In this document: piece after piece, positions 16,524 to 45,815 of the stretch
Layout of the letters: each line of letters starts with the position of its first letter
Position numbering within the stretch: the stretch's first letter is position 1
Source: a phage
NCBI GenBank assembly: GCA_012490745.1
Contig: GCA_012490745.1_3925.1
DNA: 64,000 bases
Strand: one strand, 5' to 3'
Translations under genes and position numbers: made by a program
The notes under the pieces: model-generated
The model's database searches: none
What the model saw: only the letters and a program-made list of their open reading frames with translations
What the model was told of the DNA's origin: nothing

Positions 16524-18890
16524 ATGCGCATGGTAAACGACCACGCAGAAGTGATTAAGAGTTCAACTTCTTTAGAGACGTCTCAAGCACAGATTACAAT
16601 GACACCTGAAATGTTCAGCCTTTTGAGTTCCGGTGTATACACATTTAAAGAAAGGGCAGTGATTCGTGAACTGTCATGTAACGCAGTAGATGCTCAAAAA
16701 GAAGCTGGAAAAGAGAACATCCCGTTCCATGTGCATTTACCTACTCGATTTGAGCCTTACTTTGAAGTCCGTGACTTTGGAACTGGTTTAACCCATGACA
16801 AAGTAATGAGTTTGTATCTGAACTATGGGGCTTCTACGAAGAATGACTCTAATGACTACATTGGTGCAATGGGTATCGGCTCAAAGTCACCGTTTGCGAT
16901 TGCTCAGTCATTCACAGTGTCTAGCTATGTTGATGGTGTTGTTAATAAGTACTCTGTTTACCTTGAGAATGGTATTCCTCAAGTAACTAAGCTTACTACT
17001 AACCAAACAAATGAACCTAATGGTTTAGCTGTACGTGTGGCAGTTGCTGACCACCGTATTTCAAAGTTCTTTGAAGAGGCTGGTAATGTATACTCATACT
17101 TTGCTGTAAAACCAGAGAGTAATGTGGAGTATAATGATATATTAGCAGATATGGATGTGATTGCTCGTGAAGAAGGTGTCTATGATGCCATGACTCATAA
17201 GCATAGCTGGCGTTCAAGCAGCAATAGAACAGAGTTTAACGTGGTTATGGGTAATATTGCCTACCCAGTTAATATGGAGGCATTACTTGGTGATGATTTC
17301 TTCAAAGTATTACCAGAATTTTTCCGCAGGAGCATAGACCTTGTAAACATCTACATGCCTATTGGTTCAGTTGCTATTGCAGCTTCTCGTGAAGCATTGC
17401 AGATGAATGACACGACAAAAAATGTTATCATCGAGGCTACTAAAAAGATAACTGAAGCAATTACAAAGGATGTTATCAAGAAAGTTAATAGTCAACCTAC
17501 ACTCATGGATGCTGCACAGGCTTATGCTGAGTTACGCTTGAACTCACGAGAGATGTTTAATGCTGTGTGTCCAAAGCTAGAGTGGGGAGGCGTTAAGCTT
17601 GATTCTCTGGAAGAAGAATTACTAAACATTCGTCGTGGGATTATCTACGCAGAAGACGGCTCAGTCATTTATGAACGTGACGGCAAAGGCAATATTAAGG
17701 TTGACAGCAAAGGAAACAATATCCCTAAAGTTGACTACCTATACAATCCAGTTGCTTATGTCAAGTTCAACTCTTTAGAGAGTAAGATTCGTGCAACAGC
17801 ACTTTCCTACACTCAAGAGGCAAGTATGTTCAATATCTTTGGTGCAATGCGTAAAAGTCAAATTGAACAGTTTTTGTTTGTTATTAATGACCGTCGCAAT
17901 AAAAACGGTACTGAGAAGACTGTAGGCCGCAATCAGATTCTGCGTGGTGCATGTCGAGACTACGCCAGTGAGTCCAGTCTGTTTCACAGATATAATGGCA
18001 TTGTGTTTGTATTCTCGACTGAAAAAGAGTTAGATGATTTAATCAATCTACACAAACTTGATAAAAGCTTGTTAAAGATTGTGAAAATGTCTGATAAGGA
18101 GCACCATTACCAGCGTAAAGAAGCTGTAAGGGGTGTTGTAAAACTCTGGAAAGCTGTTCCAGCAGAAGGTGTAGCTTCCTATAAAGAGGTTTCAGAGGAC
18201 TTTGATACAATTGAAGAGCCTCAGCTTTACATTAAGGCAGTTGGCGACACAGTTGATGGCGAATGTTTTTGCTCATCTCCAGAAGATGTAGCCAAGTCAG
18301 TTGCTAATGTTACAGGGAAGACAGTCTATGTTTTCCGAAAAGCAAATTGGAAAAAGATACCAGAAGACTGGATTGAAGTAGATGAGAAACTCTTGAACGA
18401 CAGCTTAACTGATGTTCATTGGATTAATCATAACAGATATATGACACGCATCTACATGAATGGTGTTCTTGACCTGACAAGCAGTTGGATTATTGCCAGA
18501 AACTTTACGTTCAATAACAGGAAGATTTCTCGTGGCTATTGCTATTCACGGGATACAAACAAAACTATCTTCCTAGAAGGAAATGAAGATGCTGTAGAGG
18601 CAATGTTTGGTAAAATCCAATACGTTGCTGCACCATTTGCATACACTTATACTATTAGTGTATTGAAAACTTTGAAAGACTGTCTTGACAATGATACAAA
18701 GCTTTACAAGAAAATTAAGAAAGCTGGTGACCGTATGGTCATTAAGGTGACAAACTACCTTTCAAAAAGAAAACAAGAAAACTTCTTGCTTTCTCATTTG
18801 GATTGGAATAAAGTGTCACCCATCGAAGTGAGTAAGTTCTTAGGCTTTGATGTAAAATGTGTTCCAGAAGGGACTACAATTTACGATTAA
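16524..18890 (+). CDS. rIIA: rIIA-like protein with GHKL-type ATPase N-terminal domain
   Basis: 788 aa; N-box-like RELSCNAVDA, G1-like VRDFGTGL, G2-like GAMGIGSKS in the order expected for a histidine-kinase-like ATPase fold as found in rIIA. Confidence 0.6.
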   Translation: MRMVNDHAEVIKSSTSLETSQAQITMTPEMFSLLSSGVYTFKERAVIRELSCNAVDAQKEAGKENIPFHVHLPTRFEPYFEVRDFGTGLTHDKVMSLYLNYGASTKNDSNDYIGAMGIGSKSPFAIAQSFTVSSYVDGVVNKYSVYLENGIPQVTKLTTNQTNEPNGLAVRVAVADHRISKFFEEAGNVYSYFAVKPESNVEYNDILADMDVIAREEGVYDAMTHKHSWRSSSNRTEFNVVMGNIAYPVNMEALLGDDFFKVLPEFFRRSIDLVNIYMPIGSVAIAASREALQMNDTTKNVIIEATKKITEAITKDVIKKVNSQPTLMDAAQAYAELRLNSREMFNAVCPKLEWGGVKLDSLEEELLNIRRGIIYAEDGSVIYERDGKGNIKVDSKGNNIPKVDYLYNPVAYVKFNSLESKIRATALSYTQEASMFNIFGAMRKSQIEQFLFVINDRRNKNGTEKTVGRNQILRGACRDYASESSLFHRYNGIVFVFSTEKELDDLINLHKLDKSLLKIVKMSDKEHHYQRKEAVRGVVKLWKAVPAEGVASYKEVSEDFDTIEEPQLYIKAVGDTVDGECFCSSPEDVAKSVANVTGKTVYVFRKANWKKIPEDWIEVDEKLLNDSLTDVHWINHNRYMTRIYMNGVLDLTSSWIIARNFTFNNRKISRGYCYSRDTNKTIFLEGNEDAVEAMFGKIQYVAAPFAYTYTISVLKTLKDCLDNDTKLYKKIKKAGDRMVIKVTNYLSKRKQENFLLSHLDWNKVSPIEVSKFLGFDVKCVPEGTTIYD

Positions 18891-18895
18891 AGTGT

Positions 18896-18925
18896 TTGAC
18901 AAGGGGCTTCAAAGCCCCTTAAAAT
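18896..18925 (+). promoter_or_regulatory. sigma70-like promoter with palindrome in spacer (TTGACA-18-TAAAAT)
   Basis: TTGACA at 18896-18901, 18-nt spacer consisting of palindrome AGGGGCTTCAAAGCCCCT, TAAAAT at 18920-18925. Confidence 0.4.
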
Positions 18926-23429: not shown

Positions 23430-24215
23430 ATGGGTATTGTAAAAATCATCAATGGCGATATCTTTGCAGCATTTGATAAAGGTAAGTTTGACATCATTGG
23501 TCACGGTTGCAACTGTATGAATTTAATGGGTGCAGGTATCGCTGACAAGATTTCTAAACTTTACCCAAAAGCATATGAGACCGATACAGAAGTTTACCTC
23601 TATGCAGGTGGTATAGGTCACAAACCCTGTGAAAATCTACTGGGTAATTTCTCTGTAGCACGTTTAGAACAAGGCCGTATAGCTAACCTTTACACTCAGC
23701 TTAAGACTGGTAAAGATGCCCGATACAGTGCTTTAGAGTCATCTTTGAAACAACTTAACAGATACTGTGAAGTCAATCAGTTGAAGAAAGTTGGGTTACC
23801 TATGATTGGTGCAGGTATCGGTGGACTAGACCCTCAAGCCGTCACAGTTATCATTAATCAGGTGATGAAGAGTGTAGATGTGTATCTTTATGTCTACGAA
23901 GGAGAGATGTACCACAAGTTACGCTCAGGTTGGAAGAACTACTGTGAACCAGAATACTTTGCAGGTGTAGCAGTGTTCACAGATAACGCAGTTACCCTCT
24001 TCAGACGAAGAAAAGGTAAGATACATCAAAGTAACCCTCCGGTTGAAAAGATGTCTCTAAGTAACGCTCTAGTTACCCACCTGTCGAAGAGCAATCACAG
24101 GATTGCAGTAACATTTGGCAGTGATGCAGATACTTATATCTATGCAAGAACTGATGAGGATATCGAGACAGTTTTCTCTTCACCAGAAGTTACCTTCTTA
24201 GACGCAAAGAACTAA
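23430..24215 (+). CDS. macro-domain protein (ADP-ribose binding/processing)
   Basis: INGDIFAAFDKGKFDIIGHGCNCMNLMGAGIADKI and VGLPMIGAGIGGLDPQ resemble the two Gly-rich macro-domain signature blocks; about 100-aa C-terminal extension. Confidence 0.55.
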   Translation: MGIVKIINGDIFAAFDKGKFDIIGHGCNCMNLMGAGIADKISKLYPKAYETDTEVYLYAGGIGHKPCENLLGNFSVARLEQGRIANLYTQLKTGKDARYSALESSLKQLNRYCEVNQLKKVGLPMIGAGIGGLDPQAVTVIINQVMKSVDVYLYVYEGEMYHKLRSGWKNYCEPEYFAGVAVFTDNAVTLFRRRKGKIHQSNPPVEKMSLSNALVTHLSKSNHRIAVTFGSDADTYIYARTDEDIETVFSSPEVTFLDAKN

Positions 24216-24287
24216 GAAACTCTGTAGGATATTCACAATAGCCTAAGCCTTTCTTATCTGGTAAATTTTTCAGGTAAGGAGGGCTTT

Positions 24288-24470
24288 TTCATTTCAGAAT
24301 TGTGCAGGTAGAGTTCTGTAGAGAAATCTGTAGAGAGAATTTTGAACTCCAAAGAGAAAATTCATTTTCAAACTGTGCAGATAATCTCCAAAGAGCTTTT
24401 TCATTTTCAAAACGTGCAGACCACACTCAGGTCGGGCAAGAAAAATCATTTTAGATTTGTGCAGGTAGGT
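24288..24470. repeat. four direct repeats of about 20 bp (TTCATTTTCAAAnnGTGCAG-type), iteron-like
   Basis: Copies near 24288, 24361, 24399, 24445; also duplicated CTCCAAAGAG and TCTGTAGAGA words; followed by C-rich tract (24491-24530) and AT-rich DNA. Confidence 0.6.
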
Positions 24471-24642
24471 TTTTATAGAGAGCCAGACCAACCCCTCTCC
24501 CCCTCTTACTCCCCCTCTCCCCAAAAATCAAGAGAAAAATTTGTAGCGGATTGAAAAATAATTCTTGATTTGTGTTCTGTTTTGTGGTAGTCGTGTGCGC
24601 CCGTTTCATTACAGTTTTGCCAAAAATATTTTTAAAATTTTT

Positions 24643-24736
24643 TCTTGACTCTTTGAACGTGGTTATCTAGTATTTGCATCAACGGGGAGGGAATGACCTT
24701 CCCCACTAAATAAAGTCCTAAACTGGAGATTCAAAA
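24643..24736 (+). promoter_or_regulatory. cassette A1: promoter (TTGACT-17-TAGTAT) + leader stem-loop GGGGAGGGAATGACCTTCCCC + conserved SD
   Basis: Hairpin 24684-24704; leader CCACTAAATAAAGTCCTAAACTGGAGATTCAAAA-ATG ending at ATG 24737. Confidence 0.6.
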
Positions 24737-25120
24737 ATGGCATATCGTGCACCTAAATTCATCAACAAAGACAACTTTCGCAACGCACTGGAGAAGTCAC
24801 TTGATGAGAATTTTAAAGGTAACATTATCGTTGTTCACGCATTCAATTTTAAGTATGATGTAAACGGGAATAGAATCAACCATTACACGGCAACCATGTT
24901 AGATGGTACACTTTCAAGTGAAAAAGCCGTACTAAATGCACTGGCAGGACGTGGAAAGGTATTAGTAAGATGTGATAAGAGACGTTATCAGGGCGGCGCA
25001 TATGGTTATGATGATGCTGTTTACCATCTTGAAAATATGGGCTATCAAGTAGAAAAAGCTGGAGCATCACAAATCATCGGCAGCGATGGTTATGTAACTA
25101 TCTTCAAAATTAACAAATAA
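24737..25120 (+). CDS. hypothetical protein (cassette-linked)
   Basis: ATG placed 8 nt after the conserved GGAG of cassette A1. Confidence 0.55.
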   Translation: MAYRAPKFINKDNFRNALEKSLDENFKGNIIVVHAFNFKYDVNGNRINHYTATMLDGTLSSEKAVLNALAGRGKVLVRCDKRRYQGGAYGYDDAVYHLENMGYQVEKAGASQIIGSDGYVTIFKINK

Positions 25121-25205
25121 AGTACTTTACAAGGGGCTTATAGTTCGATAAAGTAAGCCCCAGATAAAGAGCTTTACCACTAAATCCTAAACTGGAGATT
25201 CAAAA
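25121..25205 (+). promoter_or_regulatory. cassette B1: TTTACA-17-TAAAGT promoter-like element overlapping hairpin GGGGCTTA(13)TAAGCCCC + conserved SD leader
   Basis: Hairpin 25133-25161 with 8-bp perfect stem; leader AGATAAAGAGCTTTACCACTAAATCCTAAACTGGAGATTCAAAA-ATG. Confidence 0.5.
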
Positions 25206-25718
25206 ATGAAAACTGTAGACGCTACCTTTGAAGTTGTAAAAGAAAAATTTTCCATCATTTACGAAGCAGTTAATTGCTTTGAAGCAAGCCATAATCTTGA
25301 TAATTGGGAATTTACAGATGACCATCAAGGCGGTGTGACGATTAAAAATCCTAGCTGTCAGCGTAATGAATTTAAATATGCAATCCCTTTACATTACAGC
25401 CTTAAACAGCTTTCAAGTGACTATGCAAAACAAGGCCGGGAAAACCCATCAAAAGAGGCTTACATCAGCTTACAGAAAGAACTAGAAAGAGATTTAGAGG
25501 CTTCAGAATATAACATCGCCGCGAAAGTTGTAGATGCAAACGGTAGCACGGTTTTAGAGAGTTTTTATATTGGTTATGCTTTCGATTGGTGCTATCATGA
25601 CGGCGATGATTTAGAGGATAGACTAAAAGAAGAGGTGAACAACGCAGACGCAGAATCTGAAGTATTAGAACGTTTGGAATCGTTGAAAGACTCAGTGATG
25701 AATATCTTTAAGAACTAA
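25206..25718 (+). CDS. hypothetical acidic protein (cassette-linked)
   Basis: 170 aa, acidic (many D/E), ATG at conserved cassette position. Confidence 0.55.
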   Translation: MKTVDATFEVVKEKFSIIYEAVNCFEASHNLDNWEFTDDHQGGVTIKNPSCQRNEFKYAIPLHYSLKQLSSDYAKQGRENPSKEAYISLQKELERDLEASEYNIAAKVVDANGSTVLESFYIGYAFDWCYHDGDDLEDRLKEEVNNADAESEVLERLESLKDSVMNIFKN

Positions 25719-25721
25719 ATA

Positions 25722-25810
25722 GATTTCTTTACACGGGGTTATCAGACTGATAAGATAGCCCCAGATAAAGAGCTTTATTCAAATCAACCCTTAAACTAGG
25801 AGATTCTAAA
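25722..25810 (+). promoter_or_regulatory. cassette B2 (variant): TTTACA-17-TAAGAT + hairpin GGGGTTATC...GATAGCCCC + SD
   Basis: Hairpin 25735-25762 with one G-U pair; same downstream leader. Confidence 0.45.
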
Positions 25811-26107
25811 ATGAAATTATCAAATCAAGTGCGTGAGAATCTGAGCAAATTACTCAACAAAATTGATTTCATTGAAACATCAAGGAATAGTCATGATGTT
25901 ATGGAATGGTTACACGGCAAAATAAAAGGCCGTCGTGTAGTGATTTGCTTATGGAACAGTTGCAGGGAGTATAAAAAACCTGTATTGCAAGTCAATATCT
26001 ATGATGATACTTTTAAAAGCCCTGTAAAGTCTAAAAACGACTTATTAGAATCCTATGAGATAACTGTAAGTGGCAAAGTATCACGTAAAGAGGAAACACC
26101 ATGTTAA
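25811..26107 (+). CDS. hypothetical protein (cassette-linked)
   Basis: ATG at conserved cassette position. Confidence 0.5.
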   Translation: MKLSNQVRENLSKLLNKIDFIETSRNSHDVMEWLHGKIKGRRVVICLWNSCREYKKPVLQVNIYDDTFKSPVKSKNDLLESYEITVSGKVSRKEETPC

Positions 26108-26433
26108 TGACTGGTATCACTGCAATCATTGCCATTTTCGCGCTATATAAGGCATATAAAGCCTATAATCTAGCAAATAAGGCAATCACACAGCAGGTTA
26201 GAAATAACCTTGTAGAGAGCTTTCTAGGGCGTCTCAGTGATGAGCAAATAAAGCGGCTAGAGATGAGCTTCAGATACAAAGCGAAAACCTATCAGATAAG
26301 TGACATCTTCAAAGATAATTTTCAGTTAGTTGATGATTATAATTCTCTGATAAATGCTTTAAATGTCAGTGACTTAAAAGACTACTACGCTGTAATTGTT
26401 CAAGAGTTGAGCAAACGAAAACAAAACTGTTGA
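26107..26433 (+). CDS. hypothetical membrane protein
   Basis: TAATG stop/start overlap with upstream gene; N-terminal TM helix (GITAIIAIFALY). Confidence 0.4.
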   Translation: MTGITAIIAIFALYKAYKAYNLANKAITQQVRNNLVESFLGRLSDEQIKRLEMSFRYKAKTYQISDIFKDNFQLVDDYNSLINALNVSDLKDYYAVIVQELSKRKQNC

Positions 26434-26522
26434 CACTGGTTTTTAGATAGATTAAATTACACATCAACGGGGAGGGAATGACCTTCCCCACTAAATAAAG
26501 TCCTAAACTGGAGATTCTGAAA
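26430..26522 (+). promoter_or_regulatory. cassette A2: TTGACA-17-TAAATT promoter + leader hairpin + SD
   Basis: TTGACA 26430-26435; hairpin 26469-26489; conserved leader to ATG 26523. Confidence 0.6.
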
Positions 26523-26795
26523 ATGTATACTACTAACAACGGTCGCACCTTAAATGTCACCTTGCGTCACTATGTAGACGGTGTGATGTGCTTTGAAGAT
26601 TTACGGGCTGAGCAACACATCTTAAATTGGCAAGTTGCAGGACTCCAAAAAACTGCTACAGGATACGGGAAAAAGATTCCAACCAGTTGGAAAGTACACT
26701 ACGAAGGACGTTTGCGCAGAATTTATCAGGATGTGCAAAGCAATAGCGCATCGAGTTACATTATAGTAAAAGGCAAAAAACTGCATTTAATGTAA
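26523..26795 (+). CDS. hypothetical protein (cassette-linked)
   Basis: ATG at conserved cassette position. Confidence 0.5.
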   Translation: MYTTNNGRTLNVTLRHYVDGVMCFEDLRAEQHILNWQVAGLQKTATGYGKKIPTSWKVHYEGRLRRIYQDVQSNSASSYIIVKGKKLHLM

Positions 26796-26796
26796 A

Positions 26797-26881
26797 GTAC
26801 TTTACAAGGGGCTTATAGTTCGATAAAGTAAGCCCCAGATAAAGAGCTTTACCACTAAATCCTAAATTGGAGAACTTAAAA
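26797..26881 (+). promoter_or_regulatory. cassette B3
   Basis: Hairpin 26808-26836 (GGGGCTTA...TAAGCCCC); near-identical to B1. Confidence 0.5.
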
Positions 26882-27286
26882 ATGGCTATTAATAACCGTG
26901 AATTATCAATTTTAAAAGCACGTTTGACCGTTAACCGGATTAATGTTATCACGTCATCAGCACCAGATGAAACACTGCAAAACATTATTGGGAAGATTCA
27001 AAGTGTTATCTTAGACGTTGAAAGCGTAAAAAATTCATTGGCTGACGTTGCAGCAGGTATCACACTAGACGGTGCGCAATATGAAATGTCCGACATGTTA
27101 GGCAAATCTAAGGTAATGAATAAAGAGTTAGATTTGAAAATGTTCCGATTTGCTGTTAAAGTGTGGCTATCTGTCGAGTATGATGCTAACTTTGCAATCG
27201 CTGACTTTTTCGCCACTTGGTTGCAGCGTAATTTGACTAATCATGACTTCCGCGATATCTGTGATGCAATTTATGCAGAACTCTAA
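26882..27286 (+). CDS. hypothetical protein (cassette-linked)
   Basis: ATG 26882 at cassette position (the track start 26867 is TTG). Confidence 0.5.
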   Translation: MAINNRELSILKARLTVNRINVITSSAPDETLQNIIGKIQSVILDVESVKNSLADVAAGITLDGAQYEMSDMLGKSKVMNKELDLKMFRFAVKVWLSVEYDANFAIADFFATWLQRNLTNHDFRDICDAIYAEL

Positions 27287-27296
27287 AAAAATTTTG

Positions 27297-27388
27297 TTGA
27301 CACTGGTTTTTAGATAGATTAAATTACACATCAACGGGGAGGGAATGACCTTCCCCACTAAATAAAGTCCTAAACTGGAGATTCAAAA
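27297..27388 (+). promoter_or_regulatory. cassette A3: TTGACA-17-TAAATT + hairpin + SD
   Basis: Near-identical copy of A2; hairpin 27336-27356. Confidence 0.6.
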
Positions 27389-27592
27389 ATGGCTATTATT
27401 AATGGTTTAACCATTGAAACTACACACATCAAAGATATCAAAGTTGGCGATATAGTCCTTTCCCACGGCGTAGAAAAAACTGTCACTGCAAAGGATATCA
27501 AAGAGGATTCTTTCATGGGTAGGACTCTCTTCGGTGATTCTTATTGCTTAGGCTATCTTGCAGTTTTAAAAGTTGTCAAAAATAACAAATAA
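27389..27592 (+). CDS. hypothetical small protein (cassette-linked)
   Basis: 67 aa; ATG at cassette position. Confidence 0.5.
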   Translation: MAIINGLTIETTHIKDIKVGDIVLSHGVEKTVTAKDIKEDSFMGRTLFGDSYCLGYLAVLKVVKNNK

Positions 27593-27678
27593 AGTACTTT
27601 ACAAGGGGCTTAAAAGTTGATAACTTAAGCCCCAGATAAAGAGCTTTACCACTAAATCCTAAACTGGAGATTCTAAAA
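27593..27678 (+). promoter_or_regulatory. cassette B4 (variant loop)
   Basis: Hairpin 27605-27633 GGGGCTTAA...TTAAGCCCC (9-bp stem). Confidence 0.5.
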
Positions 27679-27927
27679 ATGATGAACTACTTTAACATTC
27701 CCGATACCTGTAGATTATTGACACAAGAAGAAAATTTGGGTAAACCTTTCATTTACCACATGCCAGATAACACGGCAAAAACTTATAGTTACAATGTTAA
27801 CCGTTTCACCGCATACGCTGCAAAGAACGGCTATAGGTTGGTTACTCAAAAAGTAATGCTGGTTACAACTGCTGGCGAGATTCCTACAGTTGCAGTCAAA
27901 CTAGTTTTCTCAAAGAAAGTTAAATAA
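27679..27927 (+). CDS. hypothetical small protein (cassette-linked)
   Basis: 82 aa. Confidence 0.5.
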   Translation: MMNYFNIPDTCRLLTQEENLGKPFIYHMPDNTAKTYSYNVNRFTAYAAKNGYRLVTQKVMLVTTAGEIPTVAVKLVFSKKVK

Positions 27928-28012
27928 AGTACTTTACAAGGGGCTTATAGTTCGATAAAGTAAGCCCCAGATAAAGAGCTTTACTACTCAATCCTAAACT
28001 GGAGATTCAAAA
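27928..28012 (+). promoter_or_regulatory. cassette B5
   Basis: Hairpin 27940-27968; same as B1/B3. Confidence 0.5.
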
Positions 28013-28555
28013 ATGAAATGTTATCACGGAACTACTCAAGAAAATTTCCTCAACCTGATTAATAACGGTGATAAACCATCAGGCGCATGGAATTGTTCGG
28101 ATATGGACGGCAATTTTTACGTGTATCCAGAAAATAAAATCTATGGCGACGATGATGAAGAGATAACATCGGAGGGCATTCAGCAAGCTCTAGGGAACGC
28201 CACTATTACGGCGGCCTTCCAGATGAAAACCCAAAATATTGTTATCTTAGAACTCGATATTCCAGATGATGAGCTAAATGATGATTATTCTTGTGATAAT
28301 ATGTCGAGTGTAGCAAGTTTTACAGAGTACTTTGATGTAAACTGGATTAAAAAGGTCTATACAACAGAGTTTAACGCTATGTATTCGCCTTTTTGTCTTC
28401 CTTCACTGGATAACCCAAATATGAACTATCTTGATGAGACATTAGAACTACTTGCTAAAAGTGTTCAACAGTCGGACAGTATTCAGGTTTTTTGTGACAT
28501 CATGGATACACTGACAGGAAACATCGCAGAAGAGGATTTAAAGAGCTTTTTCTAA
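28013..28555 (+). CDS. hypothetical highly acidic protein (cassette-linked)
   Basis: 180 aa; D/E-rich stretches (DDDEEITSEG, DIPDDELNDDY). Confidence 0.55.
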   Translation: MKCYHGTTQENFLNLINNGDKPSGAWNCSDMDGNFYVYPENKIYGDDDEEITSEGIQQALGNATITAAFQMKTQNIVILELDIPDDELNDDYSCDNMSSVASFTEYFDVNWIKKVYTTEFNAMYSPFCLPSLDNPNMNYLDETLELLAKSVQQSDSIQVFCDIMDTLTGNIAEEDLKSFF

Positions 28556-28587
28556 AAACCTATGCAATCACCTTATAAACACTATTT

Positions 28588-28607
28588 AGCCCCTTACAGG
28601 GGCTTTT
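28588..28607 (+). terminator. rho-independent terminator (AGCCCCT-TAC-AGGGGCT + TTTT)
   Basis: Perfect 7-bp stem then T-run; followed by SD GGGAGG and ATG 28622. Confidence 0.6.
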
Positions 28608-28621
28608 GGGAGGCTTAAATC

Positions 28622-28855
28622 ATGCTTACAACCGTTTACCTCATCCTTTCTATTTGTAACGGTCATTCATGCGATTTTAAAGGGCTTGAAGAGTTTACAG
28701 GAAGTAAAGAAAATGCTATTCAAGTTTGCCAGATAGCAAGACAAGACTATCCCGCTAGTGATGATATACAATGTTACTTTAAGACAGAAGATGAAGACGG
28801 TATCTATTTTGACAGCGTAGATGGTCAGTATGAAATTATCATTGAAAAAGACTAG
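28622..28855 (+). CDS. hypothetical small protein
   Basis: 77 aa; SD GGGAGG 8 nt upstream. Confidence 0.45.
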   Translation: MLTTVYLILSICNGHSCDFKGLEEFTGSKENAIQVCQIARQDYPASDDIQCYFKTEDEDGIYFDSVDGQYEIIIEKD

Positions 28856-28869
28856 ACAAGCCTGATAAA

Positions 28870-28946
28870 AATCTGTAAATTGTCAATCAACGGGGAGGGA
28901 ATGACCTTCCCCACTAAGTACAATCCTTAAACTAGGAGATTCAAAA
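28870..28946 (+). promoter_or_regulatory. cassette A4: (TAGACA-17-TAAATT) + hairpin + SD
   Basis: Hairpin 28892-28912 GGGGAGGGAATGACCTTCCCC. Confidence 0.5.
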
Positions 28947-29288
28947 ATGGCTTATGTAACCGTAATTACCGATAAAGAAAATTCATCTTGGTCAACTCAA
29001 GTAAGTGATAAGATGTCACCTATGCAGTGCCTAAAATACTTTGAGCAGTGGAACAAAGGCGAGGATGTCAGCCCCTTTCAAGTGATGCAAATCATCCATA
29101 CAGATAACGAAGGGAATAAAACGGTTTTAAATAGTGAGTACTACGCAAGCCGTTTTGAAACTAGAAGTAAAACAATGAAGCTTTTACGTGAATCCGGTTA
29201 TGCCCATATCGCCGCGCTAATCTGGGATGACCTGCTAAAAAGACAGCGTATCAGCTATGTAAAACCTGAAAAAATATTCATCAGTTAA
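28947..29288 (+). CDS. hypothetical protein (cassette-linked)
   Basis: 113 aa. Confidence 0.5.
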   Translation: MAYVTVITDKENSSWSTQVSDKMSPMQCLKYFEQWNKGEDVSPFQVMQIIHTDNEGNKTVLNSEYYASRFETRSKTMKLLRESGYAHIAALIWDDLLKRQRISYVKPEKIFIS

Positions 29289-29410
29289 TCAATAACTTAC
29301 AAAAAACTTTTAAAAAAGTGTTGACAATACCCATTGACATTGGTAACTTTGTTCGAGGGGGTTATCTAAAAGGGATTCACTTAAAAGATTCTTTATAGAT
29401 AAGCTTAAAA

Positions 29411-29507
29411 AATTGCTTGCAATCAGCTATCAAAACAAGTAAATTACTAATCAACGGGAGGGATGACCTCCCCACTAAATAAAAATCCTTAAACTAGGAG
29501 AGTCAAA
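29411..29507 (+). promoter_or_regulatory. cassette A5: TTGCAA-17-TAAATT + hairpin GGGAGG-GATGA-CCTCCC + SD
   Basis: Hairpin 29456-29473; conserved TAAATTACTAATCAACGGG and leader. Confidence 0.55.
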
Positions 29508-30038
29508 ATGAACAAGTTTAAAGCTATCAACTTCATTCGTTCAAATGCTGTAATGTCTAAGCCTGTAAAAGATACATATGAATTCCGTTGTAATGGGGTA
29601 CATTTCGCAACAATCACCAAATCAGAAAACGGGGCTTATTACGTTCATCGTCGTAATGTCTCAACCGTTGTAGTCTCTCACTTTATGCAAGCTGTAGCGG
29701 AATTATTACCGTTATTCTTAGAGATTTATCTAGATGAGTGTAAAAACGTTCACAACCACGTTAAAAACCTTTTAAACGGTTATAAAATGGCTTATGAACG
29801 TTCTATCAAGTCACTAAACAAGTTTTACAATGCACCTGCAAATACTGTTTCAATGGCTTATGATGTAAACGGTGAGTTAGTTAGTCTCTTTAAAGTGGAA
29901 GAAATTAAACTGTATAATTTACGTCCTAGTGGTTACTCTAAGACTCTTGGTGAAGGTTTAACGTTCAATATCAAGAACTTAGAAAAAACTTTAAAAGATA
30001 TTGAAAAAGATATTGACGAGACAATCAAAAGTCTGTAA
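29508..30038 (+). CDS. hypothetical protein (cassette-linked)
   Basis: 176 aa. Confidence 0.5.
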   Translation: MNKFKAINFIRSNAVMSKPVKDTYEFRCNGVHFATITKSENGAYYVHRRNVSTVVVSHFMQAVAELLPLFLEIYLDECKNVHNHVKNLLNGYKMAYERSIKSLNKFYNAPANTVSMAYDVNGELVSLFKVEEIKLYNLRPSGYSKTLGEGLTFNIKNLEKTLKDIEKDIDETIKSL

Positions 30039-30103
30039 ATTACTAATCAACGGGAGGCGATAACCTCCCCACTAAATAAAACCCTTAAACTAGGAGATTC
30101 AAG
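30013..30103 (+). promoter_or_regulatory. cassette A6: TTGACG-17-TAAATT (promoter overlaps 3' end of upstream gene) + hairpin + SD
   Basis: Hairpin 30052-30070 GGGAGG-CGATAA-CCTCCC. Confidence 0.55.
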
Positions 30104-30367
30104 ATGGAAAACGTAGAATTAACCACACTTTTACAAATTGCAACCGACAAAGAAGATGTAGCATTATTTCACCGTATTGAAAGTGATTTGTTCAATGGTG
30201 AAATCATCAAAGAATCTTACGAAGTTGTCGGATTCAAAGATGGTAAAGCGTTTGGCTTTTTTGACCTCGATAAAGGCAACGCTGTTACAAAATATGATGT
30301 TTTATCTTGTGAGATTCTTACAAAATACAACGAAAAAAGGCTTGCAACATACGCCAATATGCAGTAA
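30104..30367 (+). CDS. hypothetical protein (cassette-linked)
   Basis: 87 aa. Confidence 0.5.
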   Translation: MENVELTTLLQIATDKEDVALFHRIESDLFNGEIIKESYEVVGFKDGKAFGFFDLDKGNAVTKYDVLSCEILTKYNEKRLATYANMQ

Positions 30368-30432
30368 ATTACTAATCAACGGGAGGGATGACCTCCCCAC
30401 TAAATAAAACCCTTAAACTAGGAGATTCAAAA
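30333..30432 (+). promoter_or_regulatory. cassette A7: TTGCAA-17-TAAATT + hairpin + SD
   Basis: Hairpin 30381-30398; leader to ATG 30433. Confidence 0.55.
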
Positions 30433-30681
30433 ATGGCAACTATCCGCGCTACTGTTAACGAGTTCGGTTTTTCCTCTCTGGATGTTAAATTTGACATTGC
30501 AGGCACTGATAACGCCTTTGAAATGGTGAAATGTCTTATCAGTCAGACCATCAAAGACTATAATCCTTCGGATGAGTTCTGGGAGGAAACAAAACAAGAA
30601 GTTCTCAAGGATGGTTATACTTATCACTATTGGGGAGAAAAAATCGTCTCCCTGTACTACAACAAACAAGATTATAACTAA
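30433..30681 (+). CDS. hypothetical protein (cassette-linked)
   Basis: 82 aa from ATG 30433 (the track start 30388 lies inside the cassette). Confidence 0.5.
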   Translation: MATIRATVNEFGFSSLDVKFDIAGTDNAFEMVKCLISQTIKDYNPSDEFWEETKQEVLKDGYTYHYWGEKIVSLYYNKQDYN

Positions 30682-30719
30682 TCGACGCAGCGGGGCTATT
30701 TAGCCCCAGATACCCTAAC

Positions 30720-30745
30720 AGCCCCTATTTAAAGGGGCTTTTTTA
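30720..30745 (+). terminator. rho-independent terminator (AGCCCCT-ATTTAA-AGGGGCT + T6)
   Basis: Perfect 7-bp stem and TTTTTT; preceded by a second hairpin GGGGCTATTTAGCCCC (30692-30707). Confidence 0.7.
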
Positions 30746-30749
30746 CGTC

Positions 30750-32340
30750 TATCGAATCCTTATACAATCCCTTTCCCTCACCTTTCCAGAATCTTATCAG
30801 ACCTTAAAAGCAATAACTCTATAGTCTACTCTATAACCTCTTATCAAATCAACTTAAATATAAGCCCATAACCCGAAAGGGAAGGGCAACCCCTTAAACG
30901 CTCTATAACGCCCTATAACAGCCTTATCAACCTAACTTAAGGGGTTGCATTAACTCACCCTAAAAAGCCCTTCCTAGAGCTTCCTAGAACCTTAAAAGAA
31001 TCTTATAAGGGTGTAAGCTTTATTATCTCGTTAGCTATCTTGTGAACTACTAAACAAGCCCCTTGATAGTAACTGAAAAGTATGTTATAGGGGCTATAAA
31101 GTTACTTCAAAGTTGCTTAAAAGTTACGTAAATGCTAGCCCCCTTAACATTTTCTTAACAATTTCTTAACAAACCCTACATAGTTATGCTTTTAAGGCAC
31201 TTGTTAGCAACTTGTTAGCCCCTTGTTAAATCTCTGTCAAGACCACGTAAAAGCCTTGTAAGAACCTTTGACATAGTCTTTAAAGCCCCTGTAAAGCCCT
31301 ATAAAGAGGTATCTGTACAGTTGGGGTGTAATTACTAGGAAGAGGCTTAAAAGAGCTTACAAGGGGCTATAGAGAGCTTTTAAGAGGGCTATTTAGAGAA
31401 TCACTAAGAAAGAGAGGGAACGATAAGAAAAGAGATAGTGACCATGTTAATAGCTTGTTAAAAAGATTAAACACTTGTTAGAAACTTGTTAATTATCTTA
31501 ACAAAATAACTCTTAAAAATTAACTTGTTAGCTCTTGTTAGTCATCTGTTAAGACTCTGTAAAGACCATGTATCGTCTGTTAAGAAACTGTTAAGCCCTT
31601 GTTAGTTATGTTAAGAATCTGTTAAGACCTCTGAAGAGATGTTAAGAGATTGAGAGAGTTGTTAAGAGATTGTTAAGGATATTTTAAAATTCTGCAAAGT
31701 ACTTGTAAGGGAGCTGTTAAGGGCTACCAAGCAGATATACATCTTCTACAGATATTTTTCAGTTCCTTCAAAGACCCTAAAAAATGACTTGATAGTCCTA
31801 TTTTATAAAAATTTTAAAAATCTGAATAATTACCTATACAGTCTTTCTAAAATACAGGTAATAACAGGCTTATAAGATACCTTGTTAGTACCGTGTTAGA
31901 CCTTGTGAGATAAGGTCTGTAAAGATATTCCTGTTAAGTTTGTTAAAACAGTCTATATAGAGGCTTAGTAGCACCTAGTGAACACCTATAGAGAGTATCA
32001 TAGCTGACATAATGGGTTACTGTTAAGTAACACAGATAACCTAGAGATTAAGAGGTGTATAGGAGCTTCTAAGAGAGTGTAGAGAGATGGTTAAGGTGAT
32101 TGTATAGGTTGTTAAGAAGGCTTGTTAGAAGAGTGTTTAGAGGGCTATTTAGAAGGGCTATACAGAGGGCTATTAAGACCACTAGATAGTTACTAAGATA
32201 CTATATAGTACTATATAACTATATAGAGAGTAAGATTAAGAAGGTTGTTAAGAAGGGTAGATATTTTATTCACATATGATGGTGACCCAGAGGTTGGGAC
32301 AACCGATAAAATTTTACTCAATAAAAAGCCCCCGATTAAG
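30750..32340. repeat. 1.6-kb ORF-free region densely packed with short degenerate repeats
   Basis: No ORF of 60 aa or more on either strand. Repeated words: CTTGTTAG / CTGTTAAG / TTGTTAAGA (over 20 copies, both orientations), GGGCTAT(T/A)NAG, CTATATAG / CTATAAC, CCTTAAAAG. Confidence 0.7.
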
Positions 32341-44390: not shown

Positions 44391-44473
44391 CGGGGCGTAT
44401 CTCAGCGGTCTTCTAAACCGCCGTTAACCGAGTAAGTGGAGTATGCGGGTTCGAGTCCTGCCGCCTCGACCAA
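44391..44473 (+). tRNA. atypical tRNA-like gene (possible Arg, anticodon TCT), D-arm irregular
   Basis: Good acceptor CGGGGCG/CGCCTCG, T-arm GCGGG-TTCGAGT-CCTGC and CCA; hairpin GCGGT-CTTCTAA-ACCGC; no canonical D-stem found. Confidence 0.35.
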
Positions 44474-44614
44474 TTTAGTTAGCAGATTACTTAGACGACC
44501 TAAGCGGGTCTTCCTGTAGGGAGGTGGTCTGTATCTCATGTTTTCCAGAACATGTAAATAATCTGAGAAGGGGCTTTACAGTGTTGAGATAATACGGTAA
44601 GCTTCGAATTATAG

Positions 44615-44699
44615 TATGGGACGATGTTAAGACTCTAAGGCATGAGCAACGGCCTCCAAAACCGTTTCAAAGGGGTTCAACTCCTCCGTCCCATGCCAA
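44615..44699 (+). tRNA. atypical tRNA, possibly Trp (CCA), about 7 extra nt before D-arm
   Basis: Perfect acceptor ATGGGAC/GTCCCAT + CCA; D-arm ACTC-TAAGGCAT-GAGC; anticodon arm ACGGC-CTCCAAA-ACCGT; T-loop TTCAACT. Confidence 0.4.
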
Positions 44700-44711
44700 A
44701 GTCTTATTAGG

Positions 44712-44799
44712 GGTAGGTAGCGGCTAATGGCAGCCAAACAGTCTTGAAAACTGTTGCCACTGTAGAGATACGGTGAGGGTTCGACTCCTTTACTTACCG
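44712..44799 (+). tRNA. tRNA-Ser (TGA), class II
   Basis: D-arm AGCGGCTAATGGCAGCC; anticodon stem ACAGT/ACTGT, loop CTTGAAA; about 20-nt variable arm; T-loop TTCGACT; no encoded CCA. Confidence 0.7.
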
Positions 44800-45058
44800 C
44801 CTAATAAGATTTTTAAAGCCAAGCTTCATTCGGATGTTGCTTTGGTATACCGCGTGTATTGTCGTACACACAGATAAAGCACCTAGTAGGTGTCACGGAG
44901 AAGAGATAATATCAAGCTCTCCAAAGGTTCTAGTCACCGGATTAAACAAGACTATGCAAAGGCCTTTTTAGGTCTTTTTAGAGGGCTTCTAAGGTTATTA
45001 CAGCTTGTTGTGGAACCTTGTTGCTTAGGTTCTTAGAAGTTCTCTAAAAAGATTTAAT

Positions 45059-45136
45059 GGGAGATTGACGGTAATTGGTAAACCTACCATCCTTAGAAGT
45101 TGGTGTTTGAGGGTTCGAATCCCTTGTCTCCTACCA
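45059..45136 (+). tRNA. tRNA, anticodon TAG (Leu?) but short variable arm, identity uncertain
   Basis: Acceptor GGGAGAT/GTCTCCT, anticodon loop CTTAGAA, T-arm GAGGG-TTCGAAT-CCCTT, CCA. Confidence 0.5.
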
Positions 45137-45143
45137 AATTAAT

Positions 45144-45219
45144 GCAGGTGTAGCAAAATGGTTATGCGGCTGACTCTTAATCAGTAAGACGATGGGTTCA
45201 ATTCCCTCCACCTGTACCA
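45144..45219 (+). tRNA. tRNA-Lys (CTT)
   Basis: Anticodon stem GCTGA/TCAGT, loop CTCTTAA; same bulged T-stem as the other Lys tRNA. Confidence 0.65.
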
Positions 45220-45225
45220 AACAAT

Positions 45226-45301
45226 GGGGATGTAGTTTACATGGTTAAAACATAAGTTTTGCAAACTTAAGTACAGGGTTCAATTCCCTGCTTCTCCACC
45301 A
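45226..45301 (+). tRNA. tRNA-Ala (TGC)
   Basis: Anticodon stem TAAGT/ACTTA, loop TTTGCAA; T-arm CAGGG-TTCAATT-CCCTG; CCA. Confidence 0.75.
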
Positions 45302-45307
45302 ATTAGT

Positions 45308-45382
45308 GCATCCATAGTTTAAACGGGAAAATTACAGTCTTCCAAACTGAGGTTGAGGGTTCGATTCCCTCTGGATGCTCCA
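45308..45382 (+). tRNA. tRNA-Gly (TCC)
   Basis: Perfect acceptor GCATCCA/TGGATGC; anticodon loop CTTCCAA; T-arm GAGGG-TTCGATT-CCCTC. Confidence 0.8.
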
Positions 45383-45388
45383 AACAAT

Positions 45389-45465
45389 GCTGCTTTCGTA
45401 TAATTGGCTATTACACATCCCTTGTAAGGATGGAAATGCAGGTTCGAGTCCTGTGAGCAGCACCA
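45389..45465 (+). tRNA. tRNA-Thr (TGT)
   Basis: Anticodon stem CATCC/GGATG, loop CTTGTAA; T-loop TTCGAGT. Confidence 0.8.
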
Positions 45466-45468
45466 ATT

Positions 45469-45556
45469 CAGAGGTCAAGTGAAAGACCGCTTTGAGTCAA
45501 CTGAAGACCGTAACAAATTCCACGGAGTTGAGTTAGCGGCACAACTCCAGACCTCT
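45469..45556 (+). ncRNA. divergent structured element (outer stem AGAGGTC/GACCTCT, inner hairpin GGAGTTG/CAACTCC; contains CTGAAGACCGT box)
   Basis: Two nested inverted repeats between tRNA-Thr and tRNA-Val. Confidence 0.35.
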
Positions 45557-45561
45557 TTCAT

Positions 45562-45636
45562 ACTCGCTTAGTTTATATGGTAAAACATCACCCTTACAAG
45601 ATGAAGAAAAAGGTTCAAGTCCTTTAGTGAGTACCA
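45562..45636 (+). tRNA. tRNA-Val (TAC)
   Basis: Acceptor ACTCGCT/AGTGAGT; anticodon loop CTTACAA; T-arm AAAGG-TTCAAGT-CCTTT. Confidence 0.7.
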
Positions 45637-45637
45637 T

Positions 45638-45715
45638 GTTCCAGTATCCCAATTGGCAGAGGATGCAAGCTCAAACCTTGTACTAGTGACGGTTCGAATC
45701 CGTCTTGGAACACCA
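45638..45715 (+). tRNA. tRNA, anticodon CAA (Leu?) with short variable arm, identity uncertain
   Basis: Acceptor GTTCCAG/TTGGAAC; anticodon stem GCAAG/CTTGT, loop CTCAAAC; T-arm GACGG-TTCGAAT-CCGTC. Confidence 0.5.
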
Positions 45716-45720
45716 ATTTT

Positions 45721-45796: not shown

Positions 45797-45815
45797 ATTT
45801 AAAGAGGCTATTTAG

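What the first reader, a model, noticed from the sequence alone, without database searches (positions are those of the whole stretch)
25121..28012. Second cassette family (type B, five copies): promoter-like hexamers overlapping a perfect 8-9 bp hairpin
AAGTACTTTACAA-GGGGCTTA-(loop)-TAAGCCCC-AGATAAAGAGCTTTACCACTAAATCCTAAACTGGAGATTCAAAA-ATG recurs before five ORFs. TTTACA and TAAAGT/TAAGAT/TAACTT are separated by exactly 17 nt, and the hairpin spans the spacer and -10. Loop sequences vary while the stem is kept (one copy keeps pairing through a G-U). There is no U-tract, so it is not a simple terminator. Possibilities: a structure-gated promoter, an RNA processing site or a protein-binding palindrome.
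Basis: seen in the sequence. Interest (0 to 1): 0.6.

Follow-up and report, generated by a model that had tools for sequence, protein, structure and literature searches.

The report
Promoter-plus-hairpin gene cassettes, Felix O1 phage
The repeat is real: it is a roughly 90-base control cassette of Felix O1-like phages that interleaves a probable host-type early promoter with a conserved 59-base RNA hairpin. It also serves as the seam at which small genes of unknown function are swapped between phages, much like the "PeSL" cassettes already described in T4-like phages.

Summary
Five type B copies lie on the + strand, where shuffled sequence gives none. Each has -35 TTTACA, a 17-nt spacer, a -10 of the form TAnnnT, and a GGGG…CCCC stem with no U-tract.

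The window is a Felixounavirus. I collected 198 copies (128 unique) from all four Ounavirinae genera.
- **Promoter signature:** TTTACA is invariant. T1, A2 and T6 of the -10 are invariant while positions 3-5 vary freely. The spacer is 17 or 18 nt only, and G at -14 occurs in 91% of unique copies.
- **Spacer constraint:** the hairpin stays 28-30 nt long even though the split between stem and loop changes.
- **RNA hairpin:** It shows compensatory changes in both stems and wobble pairs almost only on the sense strand.

Gene order across 30 loci shows ORF-plus-cassette units gained, lost, duplicated and reordered at the cassettes.

The best reading is a PeSL-like composite cassette: an early promoter, a hairpin that acts on read-through RNA, and a recombination linker. 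No activity was measured. The Felix O1 genome paper listed the repeat but did not interpret it. I rate it a new member of a known kind, of moderate interest.

The parts
25118..25205 (+). Type B cassette 1, from the stop codon of ORF 24737-25120 to the base before ATG 25206. Hairpin 25118-25176; -35 TTTACA 25126-25131; -10 TAAAGT 25149-25154; predicted +1 about A25162; SD GGAG 25194-25197.
25720..25810 (+). Type B cassette 2 (variant stem GGGGTTATC/GATAGCCCC with a U.G pair). Hairpin 25720-25777; -35 25728-25733; TGn plus -10 TAAGAT 25751-25756; ATG 25811.
26793..26881 (+). Type B cassette 3. Hairpin 26793-26851 (its first three bases are the TAA stop of ORF 26523-26795); -35 26801-26806; -10 TAAAGT 26824-26829; ATG 26882.
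27590..27678 (+). Type B cassette 4. Hairpin 27590-27648; -35 27598-27603; TGn plus -10 TAACTT 27621-27626; ATG 27679.
27925..28012 (+). Type B cassette 5. Hairpin 27925-27983; -35 27933-27938; -10 TAAAGT 27956-27961; ATG 28013.
24636..30435 (+). Context: the whole array of small genes of unknown function. The five type B cassettes alternate with seven type A cassettes (TTGACA-17-TAAATT followed by a 5'-UTR hairpin) at 24636, 26422, 27288, 28846, 29414, 30011 and 30341. Both types share the leader and SD module ACTAAAT..CCTAAACTGGAGATTC.
24245..24286 (+). Canonical intrinsic terminator (17-bp stem plus T-tract) that closes the upstream unit, just before the array.
30720..30739 (+). Canonical intrinsic terminator (AGCCCCTATTTAAAGGGGCT plus TTTTTT) that closes the array.

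Best explanation
Type B is a composite intergenic regulatory cassette of Felix O1-like phages (subfamily Ounavirinae). It works like the promoter-early stem-loop (PeSL) cassettes of T4-type phages. It has three layers.

1. **A host sigma-70 early promoter (inferred).**
   - An A-rich stretch runs over the end of the upstream ORF.
   - The elements are -35 TTTACA, a 17-18 bp spacer, often a TGn extended -10, and a -10 of the form TAnnnT.
   - The predicted start is the A of AGATAAAG (about 25162 in copy 1).
   - The resulting roughly 45-nt leader carries the shared SD.

2. **A 59-nt two-part RNA hairpin.**
   - Its 5' half is the stop codon, the -35 region and the spacer.
   - Its 3' half is the end of the -10 plus the first 15 or so transcribed bases.
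   - It is therefore complete only in transcripts that read through from upstream.
   - There it most likely marks or protects the 3' end of the upstream message, or is a processing site. Its length and internal loop resemble RNase III substrates. This role is inferred.
   - By sequence criteria it is not an intrinsic terminator.

3. **A homology patch for recombination.**
   - The roughly 90-bp repeat and the leader it shares with type A cassettes are the seams at which single-ORF modules are inserted, deleted, duplicated and reordered.
   - This is shown by comparison of related phages.

The near-invariance of the 3' block AGATAAAGAGCTTTA then needs no extra factor. It must pair with a 5' strand that is itself held fixed by the stop codon and the -35.
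For: **Promoter**
- In 128 unique copies from four genera, TTTACA is present in 128 of 128.
- T1, A2 and T6 of the -10 are present in 127 of 128, while positions 3-5 take all four bases.
- The spacer is 17 nt in 118 copies and 18 nt in 9. It is never 16 or 19.
- G at -14 occurs in 116 of 127 and TGn in 72 of 127.
- The only invariant loop columns are that T and A.
- Hairpin length stays at 28-30 nt although stem and loop split as 8+13+8, 9+10+9 or 12+5+12.
- The same 5' module with a consensus TTGACA, and a hairpin wholly inside the spacer, sits between rIIA and rIIB. It is conserved in Moogle- and Suspvirus.
- In Felix O1, genes 16 and 20, which follow its two type B repeats, peak 5 min after infection (PMC3185647).

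**RNA hairpin**
- 92.3% of cells are paired, against 30-57% when the partners are slid.
- Compensatory GC to UA changes occur at upper pair 19-45 (10 sequences) and lower pair 5-58 (12 sequences). UA to AU occurs at pair 1-62 (4 sequences).
- There are 151 G.U cells against 7 A.C cells, and the sense strand folds better in 66 of 97 copies.
- Fold z-scores are -4.4 to -6.4 in every lineage.

**Shuffling**
- Gene order in 30 loci shows single ORFs present or absent, swapped (L019), tandemly duplicated (L008), and empty cassette pairs (L034, L045), always at cassettes.
- The window's cassette 1 is a chimera of the two KhF3 cassettes that flank an extra ORF.

**Match to PeSL**
[quoted passage not shown] They often have a G-run, a loop and a C-run, and span from the upstream stop to the ATG in regions rich in orphan genes (PMC2839356).
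- All ten ORFs of the array have no known function.
Against: - No transcription start, RNA end or promoter activity has been measured for any Felix O1-like phage in the literature searched.
- A single copy scores only 8-9 of 12 against the sigma-70 consensus, which is common in this AT-rich DNA: 45 sites found against 31 expected.
- CTTTA of the -35 and T6 of the -10 are also stem bases, so part of their conservation could come from the hairpin.
- In the window, type A (consensus) promoters always open a run of genes and type B sits between cistrons. That is also what a pure intercistronic RNA element would look like.
- The copies are related and exchange sequence. Counts of unique sequences therefore overstate the number of independent events. 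The wobble asymmetry rests mainly on three positions.
- PeSL stem-loops were reported to terminate transcription. Here there is no U-tract.
Confidence: 0.6

Rival explanations
1. RNA-only element. Type B is an intercistronic processing or stabilising hairpin, for example an RNase III site like those between T7 early genes, or a barrier to 3' exonucleases. It would sit inside operons driven by type A promoters, and its likeness to a promoter would be incidental.
For: - In the window every gene run opens with a type A consensus promoter, and B elements separate internal cistrons.
- The hairpin is 22-27 bp-equivalents long with a symmetric internal loop, the general shape of RNase III substrates.
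- Both stems covary and the wobble pairs are on the sense strand.
Against: - It does not explain the invariant T and A in the loop, G at -14 in 91% of copies, the invariant CA of the internal loop, or the 10-13-nt loops.
- It does not explain why total length stays at 28-30 nt while stem length changes.
- It does not explain the rIIA-rIIB relative, which has a consensus -35 and a -10 outside the hairpin.
Confidence: 0.15
2. Promoter whose activity is gated by DNA structure. A hairpin or cruciform extrudes in the spacer and -10 and switches the promoter on or off.
For: The inverted repeat covers the spacer and part of the -10 in every copy.
Against: - The arms are 8-9 bp with an 11-13-nt spacer, which extrudes poorly (established knowledge of cruciforms; not tested here).
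- A DNA structure would suffer T.G and A.C mismatches equally on its two strands. Observed are 151 G.U cells against 7 A.C cells on the sense strand.
- The lower stem covaries across 45 nt, which fits RNA folding.
Confidence: 0.06
3. Operator model. The two 12-bp palindromes TAAAGnnCTTTA that flank the promoter bind a dimeric phage or host regulator, which represses or activates the promoter.
For: Both flanks are self-complementary 12-mers, one over the -35 and one at +4 to +15. The 3' block is nearly invariant across four genera.
Against: - Covariation runs between the left half of the 5' site and the right half of the 3' site (pair 5-58, GC to UA in 12 sequences).
- That change destroys the symmetry of each 12-mer while keeping the long hairpin.
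- In variant 2 the 5' site, TAGATTTCTTTA, is not palindromic at all, yet it pairs at 12 of 12 positions with TAAAGAGATTTA.
Confidence: 0.06
4. Plain transcription terminator or attenuator for the upstream gene, with nothing more to it.
For: - It is a GC-rich stem directly after a stop codon.
- PeSL stem-loops reduced read-through in a reporter (PMC2839356).
Against: - There is no U-tract after either the upper stem or the full hairpin, and no site is called by the terminator scan.
- Real terminators with T-tracts bracket the array at 24245 and 30720.
- The 10-13-nt loops are unusually large for terminators.
Confidence: 0.04

Closest known systems
PeSL (promoter-early stem-loop) cassettes of T4-type phages (Arbiol, Comeau and Krisch 2010, PMC2839356; Comeau et al. 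2014, PMC4122927)
   Same: [quoted passage not shown]
- Both carry a sigma-70-type early promoter with an AT-rich upstream region.
- Both have a stem-loop of G-run, loop and C-run placed between the -35 and -10 or over the -10.
- Both cluster in a region of small orphan genes.
- In both, indels and replacements between close relatives end in the cassettes.
   Different: - The phage subfamily is different: Ounavirinae, not T4-like.
- There is no sequence similarity.
- The hairpin here is two-part and 59 nt long. Its lower stem pairs the stop codon and -35 region with the first transcribed bases.
- There is no U-tract, so the terminator activity shown for PeSL is unproven here.
- Two cassette types (A and B) share one leader.
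- Promoter activity and mini-circles have not been tested.
RNase III processing hairpins between T7 early genes (e.g. R1.1)
   Same: - Both are intercistronic hairpins in early phage transcripts.
- Both have an upper stem, an internal loop and a lower stem, about two helical turns in all.
- Cleavage in the 3' side of the internal loop would leave a protective 3' hairpin on the upstream message.
   Different: - T7 sites do not contain a promoter.
- The T7 internal loop is asymmetric.
- Cleavage here is a conjecture based on shape only, from my own knowledge of T7. It was not tested.
Promoter-coupled terminators of bacteria (Fletcher et al. 2026, bioRxiv 10.64898/2026.08.19.745784)
   Same: One stretch of DNA serves both the end of the upstream unit and the start of the downstream unit. 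Stem-loop DNA overlaps promoter elements.
   Different: In those elements the stem-loop DNA supplies the -35, the T-tract is the spacer, and the -10 follows it. Here the -35 lies upstream of the main stem, the stem and loop fill the spacer and the -10, and there is no T-tract.
The direct repeats listed in the Felix O1 genome paper (Whichard et al. 2010, PMC3185647)
   Same: This is the same element. Their 57-bp repeat CTTTACATGGGGCTTAAAAGTCTGTAAAGTAAGCCCCAGATAAAGAGCTTTACCACT lies between genes 15/16 and 19/20. Their 39-bp repeat is type A.
   Different: The paper reports them only as direct repeats. It gives no promoter, hairpin or recombination interpretation.

Membership tests
PeSL cassettes | Sigma-70-like early promoter (-35, -10, AT-rich upstream) | tested here: met
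   Met by sequence conservation only. TTTACA is present in 128/128 unique copies and TAnnnT in 127/128. The spacer is 17-18 nt, G at -14 occurs in 91%, and an A-rich stretch lies upstream. Activity was not measured.
PeSL cassettes | Stable stem-loop, often G-run/loop/C-run, between the -35 and -10 or over the -10 | tested here: met
   The GGGG…CCCC stem fills the spacer and overlaps the -10. Folds are -19 to -24 kcal/mol, z = -4.4 to -6.4. Covariation is shown.
PeSL cassettes | [quoted passage not shown] | tested here: met
   In four of five copies the TAA stop forms bases 1-3 of the hairpin. The SD and ATG follow 30-35 nt after it.
PeSL cassettes | Many copies concentrated in a plastic region of orphan genes | tested here: met
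   Five type B and seven type A cassettes lie in 5.8 kb. All ten ORFs tested have no known function. No type B copy occurs elsewhere in the 64-kb window.
PeSL cassettes | Indels and replacements between related phages end in the cassettes (modular shuffling) | tested here: met
   Gene order in 30 loci shows presence/absence, a swap, a duplication and empty cassette pairs. A chimeric junction is visible.
PeSL cassettes | Stem-loop is an effective transcription terminator or attenuator | not testable with these tools
   The sequence criteria for an intrinsic terminator are not met: there is no U-tract and the scan calls nothing. A reporter or Term-seq experiment is needed.
PeSL cassettes | Recombination between cassettes yields circular ORF mini-circles | not testable with these tools
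   This needs inverse PCR on phage DNA.
PeSL cassettes | Found in T4-type myoviruses | tested here: not met
   The window and all 48 matching stretches in the viral collection come from 54-94 kb contigs, most of them 81-94 kb. Every annotated GenBank hit I examined is in subfamily Ounavirinae. I therefore file it as PeSL-like in another subfamily.
Intrinsic (Rho-independent) terminator | GC-rich hairpin followed at once by a U-tract | tested here: not met
   The hairpin is present. The tails are AGAUAAAG after the upper stem and CCACUAAA after the full hairpin.
RNase III processing site | About 20 bp or more of mostly double-stranded RNA, often with an internal loop | tested here: met
   An 11-12-pair lower stem, a 2-3-nt symmetric internal loop and a 9-12-pair upper stem.
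RNase III processing site | Cleavage by RNase III | not testable with these tools
   This needs a comparison of rnc mutant and wild-type hosts, or cleavage in vitro.
T4 middle (MotA-dependent) promoter | MotA box (a/t)(a/t)(a/t)TGCTTtA placed 12 +/- 1 bp from the -10 (PMC2988021) | tested here: not met
   GTGCTTTA is present in Moogle, Susp and Erwinia phage copies, but it ends 19 bp before the -10. Whichard et al. report no MotA- or AsiA-like genes.
Promoter-coupled terminator (Fletcher 2026) | Stem-loop DNA acts as the -35, the T-tract as the spacer, and the -10 follows directly | tested here: not met
   The geometry differs and there is no T-tract.

The most novel reading that the evidence does not exclude
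The cassette could be a natural insulator for gene expression. The hairpin in read-through RNA would be cut by RNase III or a phage nuclease in the 3' side of its internal loop (AGA). That is the same position where the embedded promoter is predicted to start transcription. Each orphan gene would then get an identical 5' UTR whether it is transcribed from its own promoter or from any upstream one. Expression would not depend on genomic context, which would explain how modules can be shuffled freely. The upstream message would keep the upper hairpin as a protective 3' end.
Probability: 0.15. Interest if true: 0.65.

Novelty: new member of a known kind. Interest (0 to 1): 0.4.

Why it matters
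**For Felix O1-like phages**
- These phages are widely used for Salmonella and E. coli typing, biocontrol and therapy, but their transcription programme is essentially unmapped.
- If the reading is right, it supplies a class of early promoters that curated records do not annotate. The AYO145A record, for example, marks type A as a promoter but not type B.
- It explains why gene content in this region differs from isolate to isolate.

**More broadly**
- It extends the PeSL principle beyond T4-like phages: a regulatory cassette that doubles as a recombination linker.
- That suggests a convergent, general solution for keeping shuffled orphan genes expressible.
- The overlapping constraints (stop codon, -35, spacer length, -10, two stems) make a compact model for how several codes coexist in 59 bases.
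- The cassettes are ready-made portable expression units for phage engineering.

Tried and rejected
- **T4 MotA-type middle promoter.** The box-like GTGCTTTA is at the wrong distance: 19 bp from the -10, not 12 +/- 1.
- **N4-type hairpin promoter.** From my own knowledge of N4, that needs a 5-7-bp stem, a 3-nt loop and a virion RNA polymerase. Whichard et al. report no phage-encoded RNA polymerase in Felix O1. Not pursued.
- **Integron attC-like site.** It is also an imperfect palindrome of about 59 bases, but there are no core or inverse-core motifs and these are lytic phages with no integrase reported. Rejected on sequence. Site-specific recombination cannot be excluded experimentally.
- **Known RNA family.** An Rfam scan of 24000-31000 at E <= 1 gave only a chance miRNA hit at 21 bits, against a gathering score of 47.
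- **Terminator on the minus strand.** The KhF3 record annotates type A hairpins this way. There is no T-tract, and the wobble pairs become A.C mismatches on that strand.
- **Literature.** Searches for start-site mapping or RNA-seq of Felix O1-like phages found nothing usable. One of these was too loosely specified and was wasted.
- **Linking loop type to the upstream or downstream gene.** I tried this to locate crossover points. The result was too mixed to give a clean rule. It shows only that loop types move between junctions.
- **Malformed calls.** My first pattern search missed four copies because of my own pattern error, corrected. Searches failed on term syntax, and one search failed on a seed-length limit.
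Full report

Yes. The pattern TTTACA-N-GGGG-N(14-24)-CCCCAGATAAAGAGC occurs five times on the + strand, at 25126, 25728, 26801, 27598 and 27933. It did not occur in any of 100 dinucleotide-preserving shuffles. The 3' block CCCCAGATAAAGAGCTTTA occurs exactly five times.

All five copies lie between the stop codon of one small ORF and the ATG of the next. The two hexamers are 17 nt apart in every copy (and direct reading for TAACTT at 27621-27626). The stem is a perfect 8 bp in four copies. No terminator-like site is called at any copy.

The hairpin is larger than described. The stop codon and -35 region (TAAAGTACTTTA) pair with the block after the stem (TAAAGAGCTTTA). This gives a 59-nt two-part hairpin: a lower stem, a 3x3 internal loop (CAN/WGA) and the GGGG/CCCC upper stem. 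It folds at -19 to -24 kcal/mol, with z = -4.4 to -6.4.

**2. Where does it come from?**

The window is a Felix O1-like myophage (Felixounavirus). Its best match is Escherichia phage vB_EcoM_LMP33 at 96% identity.

The cassette occurs in 289 phage records. They cover all four genera of subfamily Ounavirinae: Felixounavirus, Mooglevirus, Suspvirus and Kolesnikvirus of Erwinia. A scan of the viral collection found it in 48 stretches on contigs of 54-94 kb, most of them 81-94 kb, the size of these genomes.

The Felix O1 genome paper lists exactly this sequence as a 57-bp direct repeat between genes 15/16 and 19/20. It lists type A as a 39-bp repeat. It interprets neither (PMC3185647). Curated records mark type A as a promoter but leave type B unannotated. 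One record marks type A hairpins as minus-strand terminators. I found no start-site or RNA-seq study of these phages.

**3. Comparative anatomy**

A profile search over the window and 54 related loci gave 198 copies, 128 unique cores and 97 unique 59-nt spans.

*Promoter signature*:
- TTTACA is present in all 128 unique cores.
- The hexamer 17 nt downstream (118 copies) or 18 nt downstream (9 copies) is T-A-n-n-n-T in 127 of 128. Positions 3-5 take all four bases.
- G at -14 is present in 116 of 127, and a full TGn extended -10 in 72 of 127.
- The T and A of the -10 are the only invariant columns in the loop.
- Total hairpin length is 28-30 nt in every copy, although stem and loop split as 8+13+8, 9+10+9 or 12+5+12 in different lineages.

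A fixed total length with a free internal partition is what a promoter spacer demands. A hairpin alone would not demand it. It also accounts for the unusually large loops.

*RNA-structure signature*:
- On alignment A1, 92.3% of cells pair, against 30-57% when the partners are slid by 1-3 columns.
- Upper pair 19-45 is G-C in 85 sequences and U-A in 10 (Erwinia phages).
- Lower pair 5-58 is G-C in 74 and U-A in 12. Pair 1-62 is U-A in 70 and A-U in 4.
- Wobble pairs are strongly strand-biased. There are 151 G.U cells against 7 A.C cells, and the sense strand folds better in 66 of 97 copies.

The wobble bias rests mainly on three positions, and the copies are related, so I treat it as supportive rather than decisive.

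The 5-58 covariation matters for another reason. It links the left half of the 5' 12-mer to the right half of the 3' 12-mer. Each 12-mer loses its own symmetry while the long hairpin is kept. That argues against two separate palindromic protein sites.

**4. Context**

The five type B cassettes alternate with seven type A cassettes. Type A has TTGACA-17-TAAATT followed by a hairpin at the 5' end of its own transcript. Both types share the leader and SD module. The array runs from 24636 to about 30700 and is bracketed by canonical terminators at 24245-24286 and 30720-30739. All ten ORFs tested belong to PHROG families of unknown function and have no Pfam match.

A related element sits between rIIA and rIIB at 18888-18925: TAAAGTGTTTGACA-A-GGGGCTTCAAAGCCCC-T-TAAAAT. 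It has the same 5' module, but with a consensus -35 and the hairpin wholly inside the spacer. Moogle- and Suspvirus conserve it as TTGACA-GGGGCTGAAAAGCCCC-T-TAGAAT. Placing a hairpin in the promoter spacer is therefore a recurrent design in these phages.

In Felix O1, semi-quantitative RT-PCR places genes 16 and 20 in the class that peaks at 5 min. These are the genes that follow its two type B repeats.

**5. Recombination**

I ordered cassettes and ORF families in 30 loci. Single ORFs come and go exactly at cassettes:
- An 85-97-aa ORF (family x1) lies between the homologues of 24737 and 25206 in most of the loci that cover this junction. It is absent from the window.
- The 27679 ORF is present in some phages and absent in others.
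- The 27389 and 27679 ORFs are in reverse order in L019.
- L008 carries 'B x1 B B x1 B'.
- Empty 'B A' pairs occur in L034 and L045.

At the nucleotide level, the window's cassette 1 is identical to the KhF3 cassette after the 24737 homologue for its first 83 nt. It then switches near the SD to the KhF3 cassette before the 25206 homologue. Loop types also move between junctions.

**6. Mechanism**

*Shown by computation:* the conservation pattern, the covariation, the strand bias and the gene-order polymorphism.

*Inferred:*
- Host sigma-70 RNA polymerase starts about 7 nt after the -10, at the A of AGATAAAG (about 25162 in copy 1).
- The promoter's own transcript therefore carries only the 3' strand of the lower stem. 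The complete hairpin exists only in RNA that reads through from upstream.
- In that RNA the hairpin most likely protects or defines the 3' end of the upstream message, or is a processing site. It has the size and internal loop of RNase III substrates, but this rests on shape alone.
- It is not an intrinsic terminator by sequence criteria.

Under this model the near-invariant 3' block needs no extra factor. It must pair with a 5' strand that the stop codon and the -35 already hold fixed.

**7. Comparison with what is known**

The closest known system is the PeSL cassette of T4-type phages (PMC2839356, PMC4122927). PeSLs have these features:
- a sigma-70-like early promoter;
- an extent from the upstream stop to the ATG;
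- clustering in plastic regions of orphan genes, where they mediate modular shuffling.

Every feature I could test is met except the host group. Terminator activity, promoter activity and mini-circles cannot be tested here.

Bacterial promoter-coupled terminators (bioRxiv 10.64898/2026.08.19.745784) share the idea of dual-use DNA but have a different geometry. A T4 MotA-type middle promoter is excluded by spacing.

**8. Verdict**

The finding is real and non-random. The most likely reading is a PeSL-like promoter-plus-hairpin cassette that also serves as a recombination linker.

My confidence is about 0.6 for the composite model. By component it is about 0.7 for the promoter, 0.75 for a selected RNA hairpin and 0.85 for modular shuffling.

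I rate it a new member of a known kind, in a phage subfamily where it had only been listed as a direct repeat. Interest is moderate (0.4).

The most novel reading still open is that processing of read-through RNA and initiation at the embedded promoter give the same 5' end. That would make each module's expression independent of its genomic context (probability about 0.15).

Noticed in passing
window 24636-24739, 26422-26522, 27288-27391, 28846-28949, 29414-29509, 30011-30105, 30341-30435: Type A cassettes have a near-consensus promoter (TTGACA-17-TAAATT, or a weaker -35). The hairpin GGGGAGGG..CCTTCCCC, or GGGAGG..CCTCCC, starts only about 3-10 nt after the predicted start site. It would act as a 5'-terminal stem-loop on the cassette's own mRNA and contains a sense-strand G.U pair. 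Type A shares the leader and SD module with type B.
   Followed up: partly
window 18888-18925: The rIIA-rIIB intergenic region reads TAAAGTGTTTGACA-A-GGGGCTTCAAAGCCCC-T-TAAAAT. It has the same 5' module as type B, but with a consensus -35 and the hairpin entirely inside the 18-nt spacer, followed by UUAAAAU. Moogle- and Suspvirus conserve it with a GAAA tetraloop (L004, L005, L006).
   Followed up: partly
window 24289-24640: About 350 bp of apparently non-coding DNA lies between the terminator at 24245-24286 and the first cassette. It holds two pairs of 35-nt direct repeats (24289/24446 and 24347/24386) and a C-rich tract, cccctcttactccccctctcccc, at 24500-24522. Its function is unknown.
   Followed up: no
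window 28588-28613: A third kind of intergenic element lies before the ORF at 28622. It is the hairpin AGCCCC-TTACA-GGGGCT followed by TTTGGGAGG, where the short T-run leads straight into the SD. It looks like a weak terminator fused to a ribosome-binding site, with no promoter hexamers.
   Followed up: no
window 25110-25120, 27582-27592; L001 (KhF3) 652-663, 1124-1135, 1504-1515: Several ORFs from different BLAST clusters upstream of type B cassettes end with the same codons, AAC AAA TAA (or GAC AAA TAA). Cassette homology therefore reaches a few codons into the upstream gene and supplies its last residues and its stop codon.
   Followed up: partly
L008 (IMGVR_UViG_2974556886_000001), L019, L034, L045: L008 carries a tandem duplication, 'B x1 B B x1 B'. 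L019 has the 27389 and 27679 homologues in reverse order. L034 and L045 have adjacent B and A cassettes with no ORF between them. These look like footprints of recent cassette-mediated rearrangements.
   Followed up: partly
GenBank GU169904.1 (hit H35): The 147-kb record named Staphylococcus phage SA1 carries six places matching this Felix O1-type cassette, the best at 96% identity. The record may be chimeric or contaminated with a Felixounavirus.
   Followed up: no
window 42830-47740: There is a dense run of repeats resembling tRNA T-arms (GGTTCGAATCC…CCA), at least 14 copies. This is presumably the phage tRNA gene cluster known from Felix O1. I did not run ARAGORN on it.
   Followed up: no
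window 38046-38587 (repeat family D13): Three 41-nt direct repeats are spaced about 250 nt apart on the + strand (CCACCTGCACC…). This suggests a protein-coding repeat, possibly a tail or Ig-like domain gene on the minus strand.
   Followed up: no
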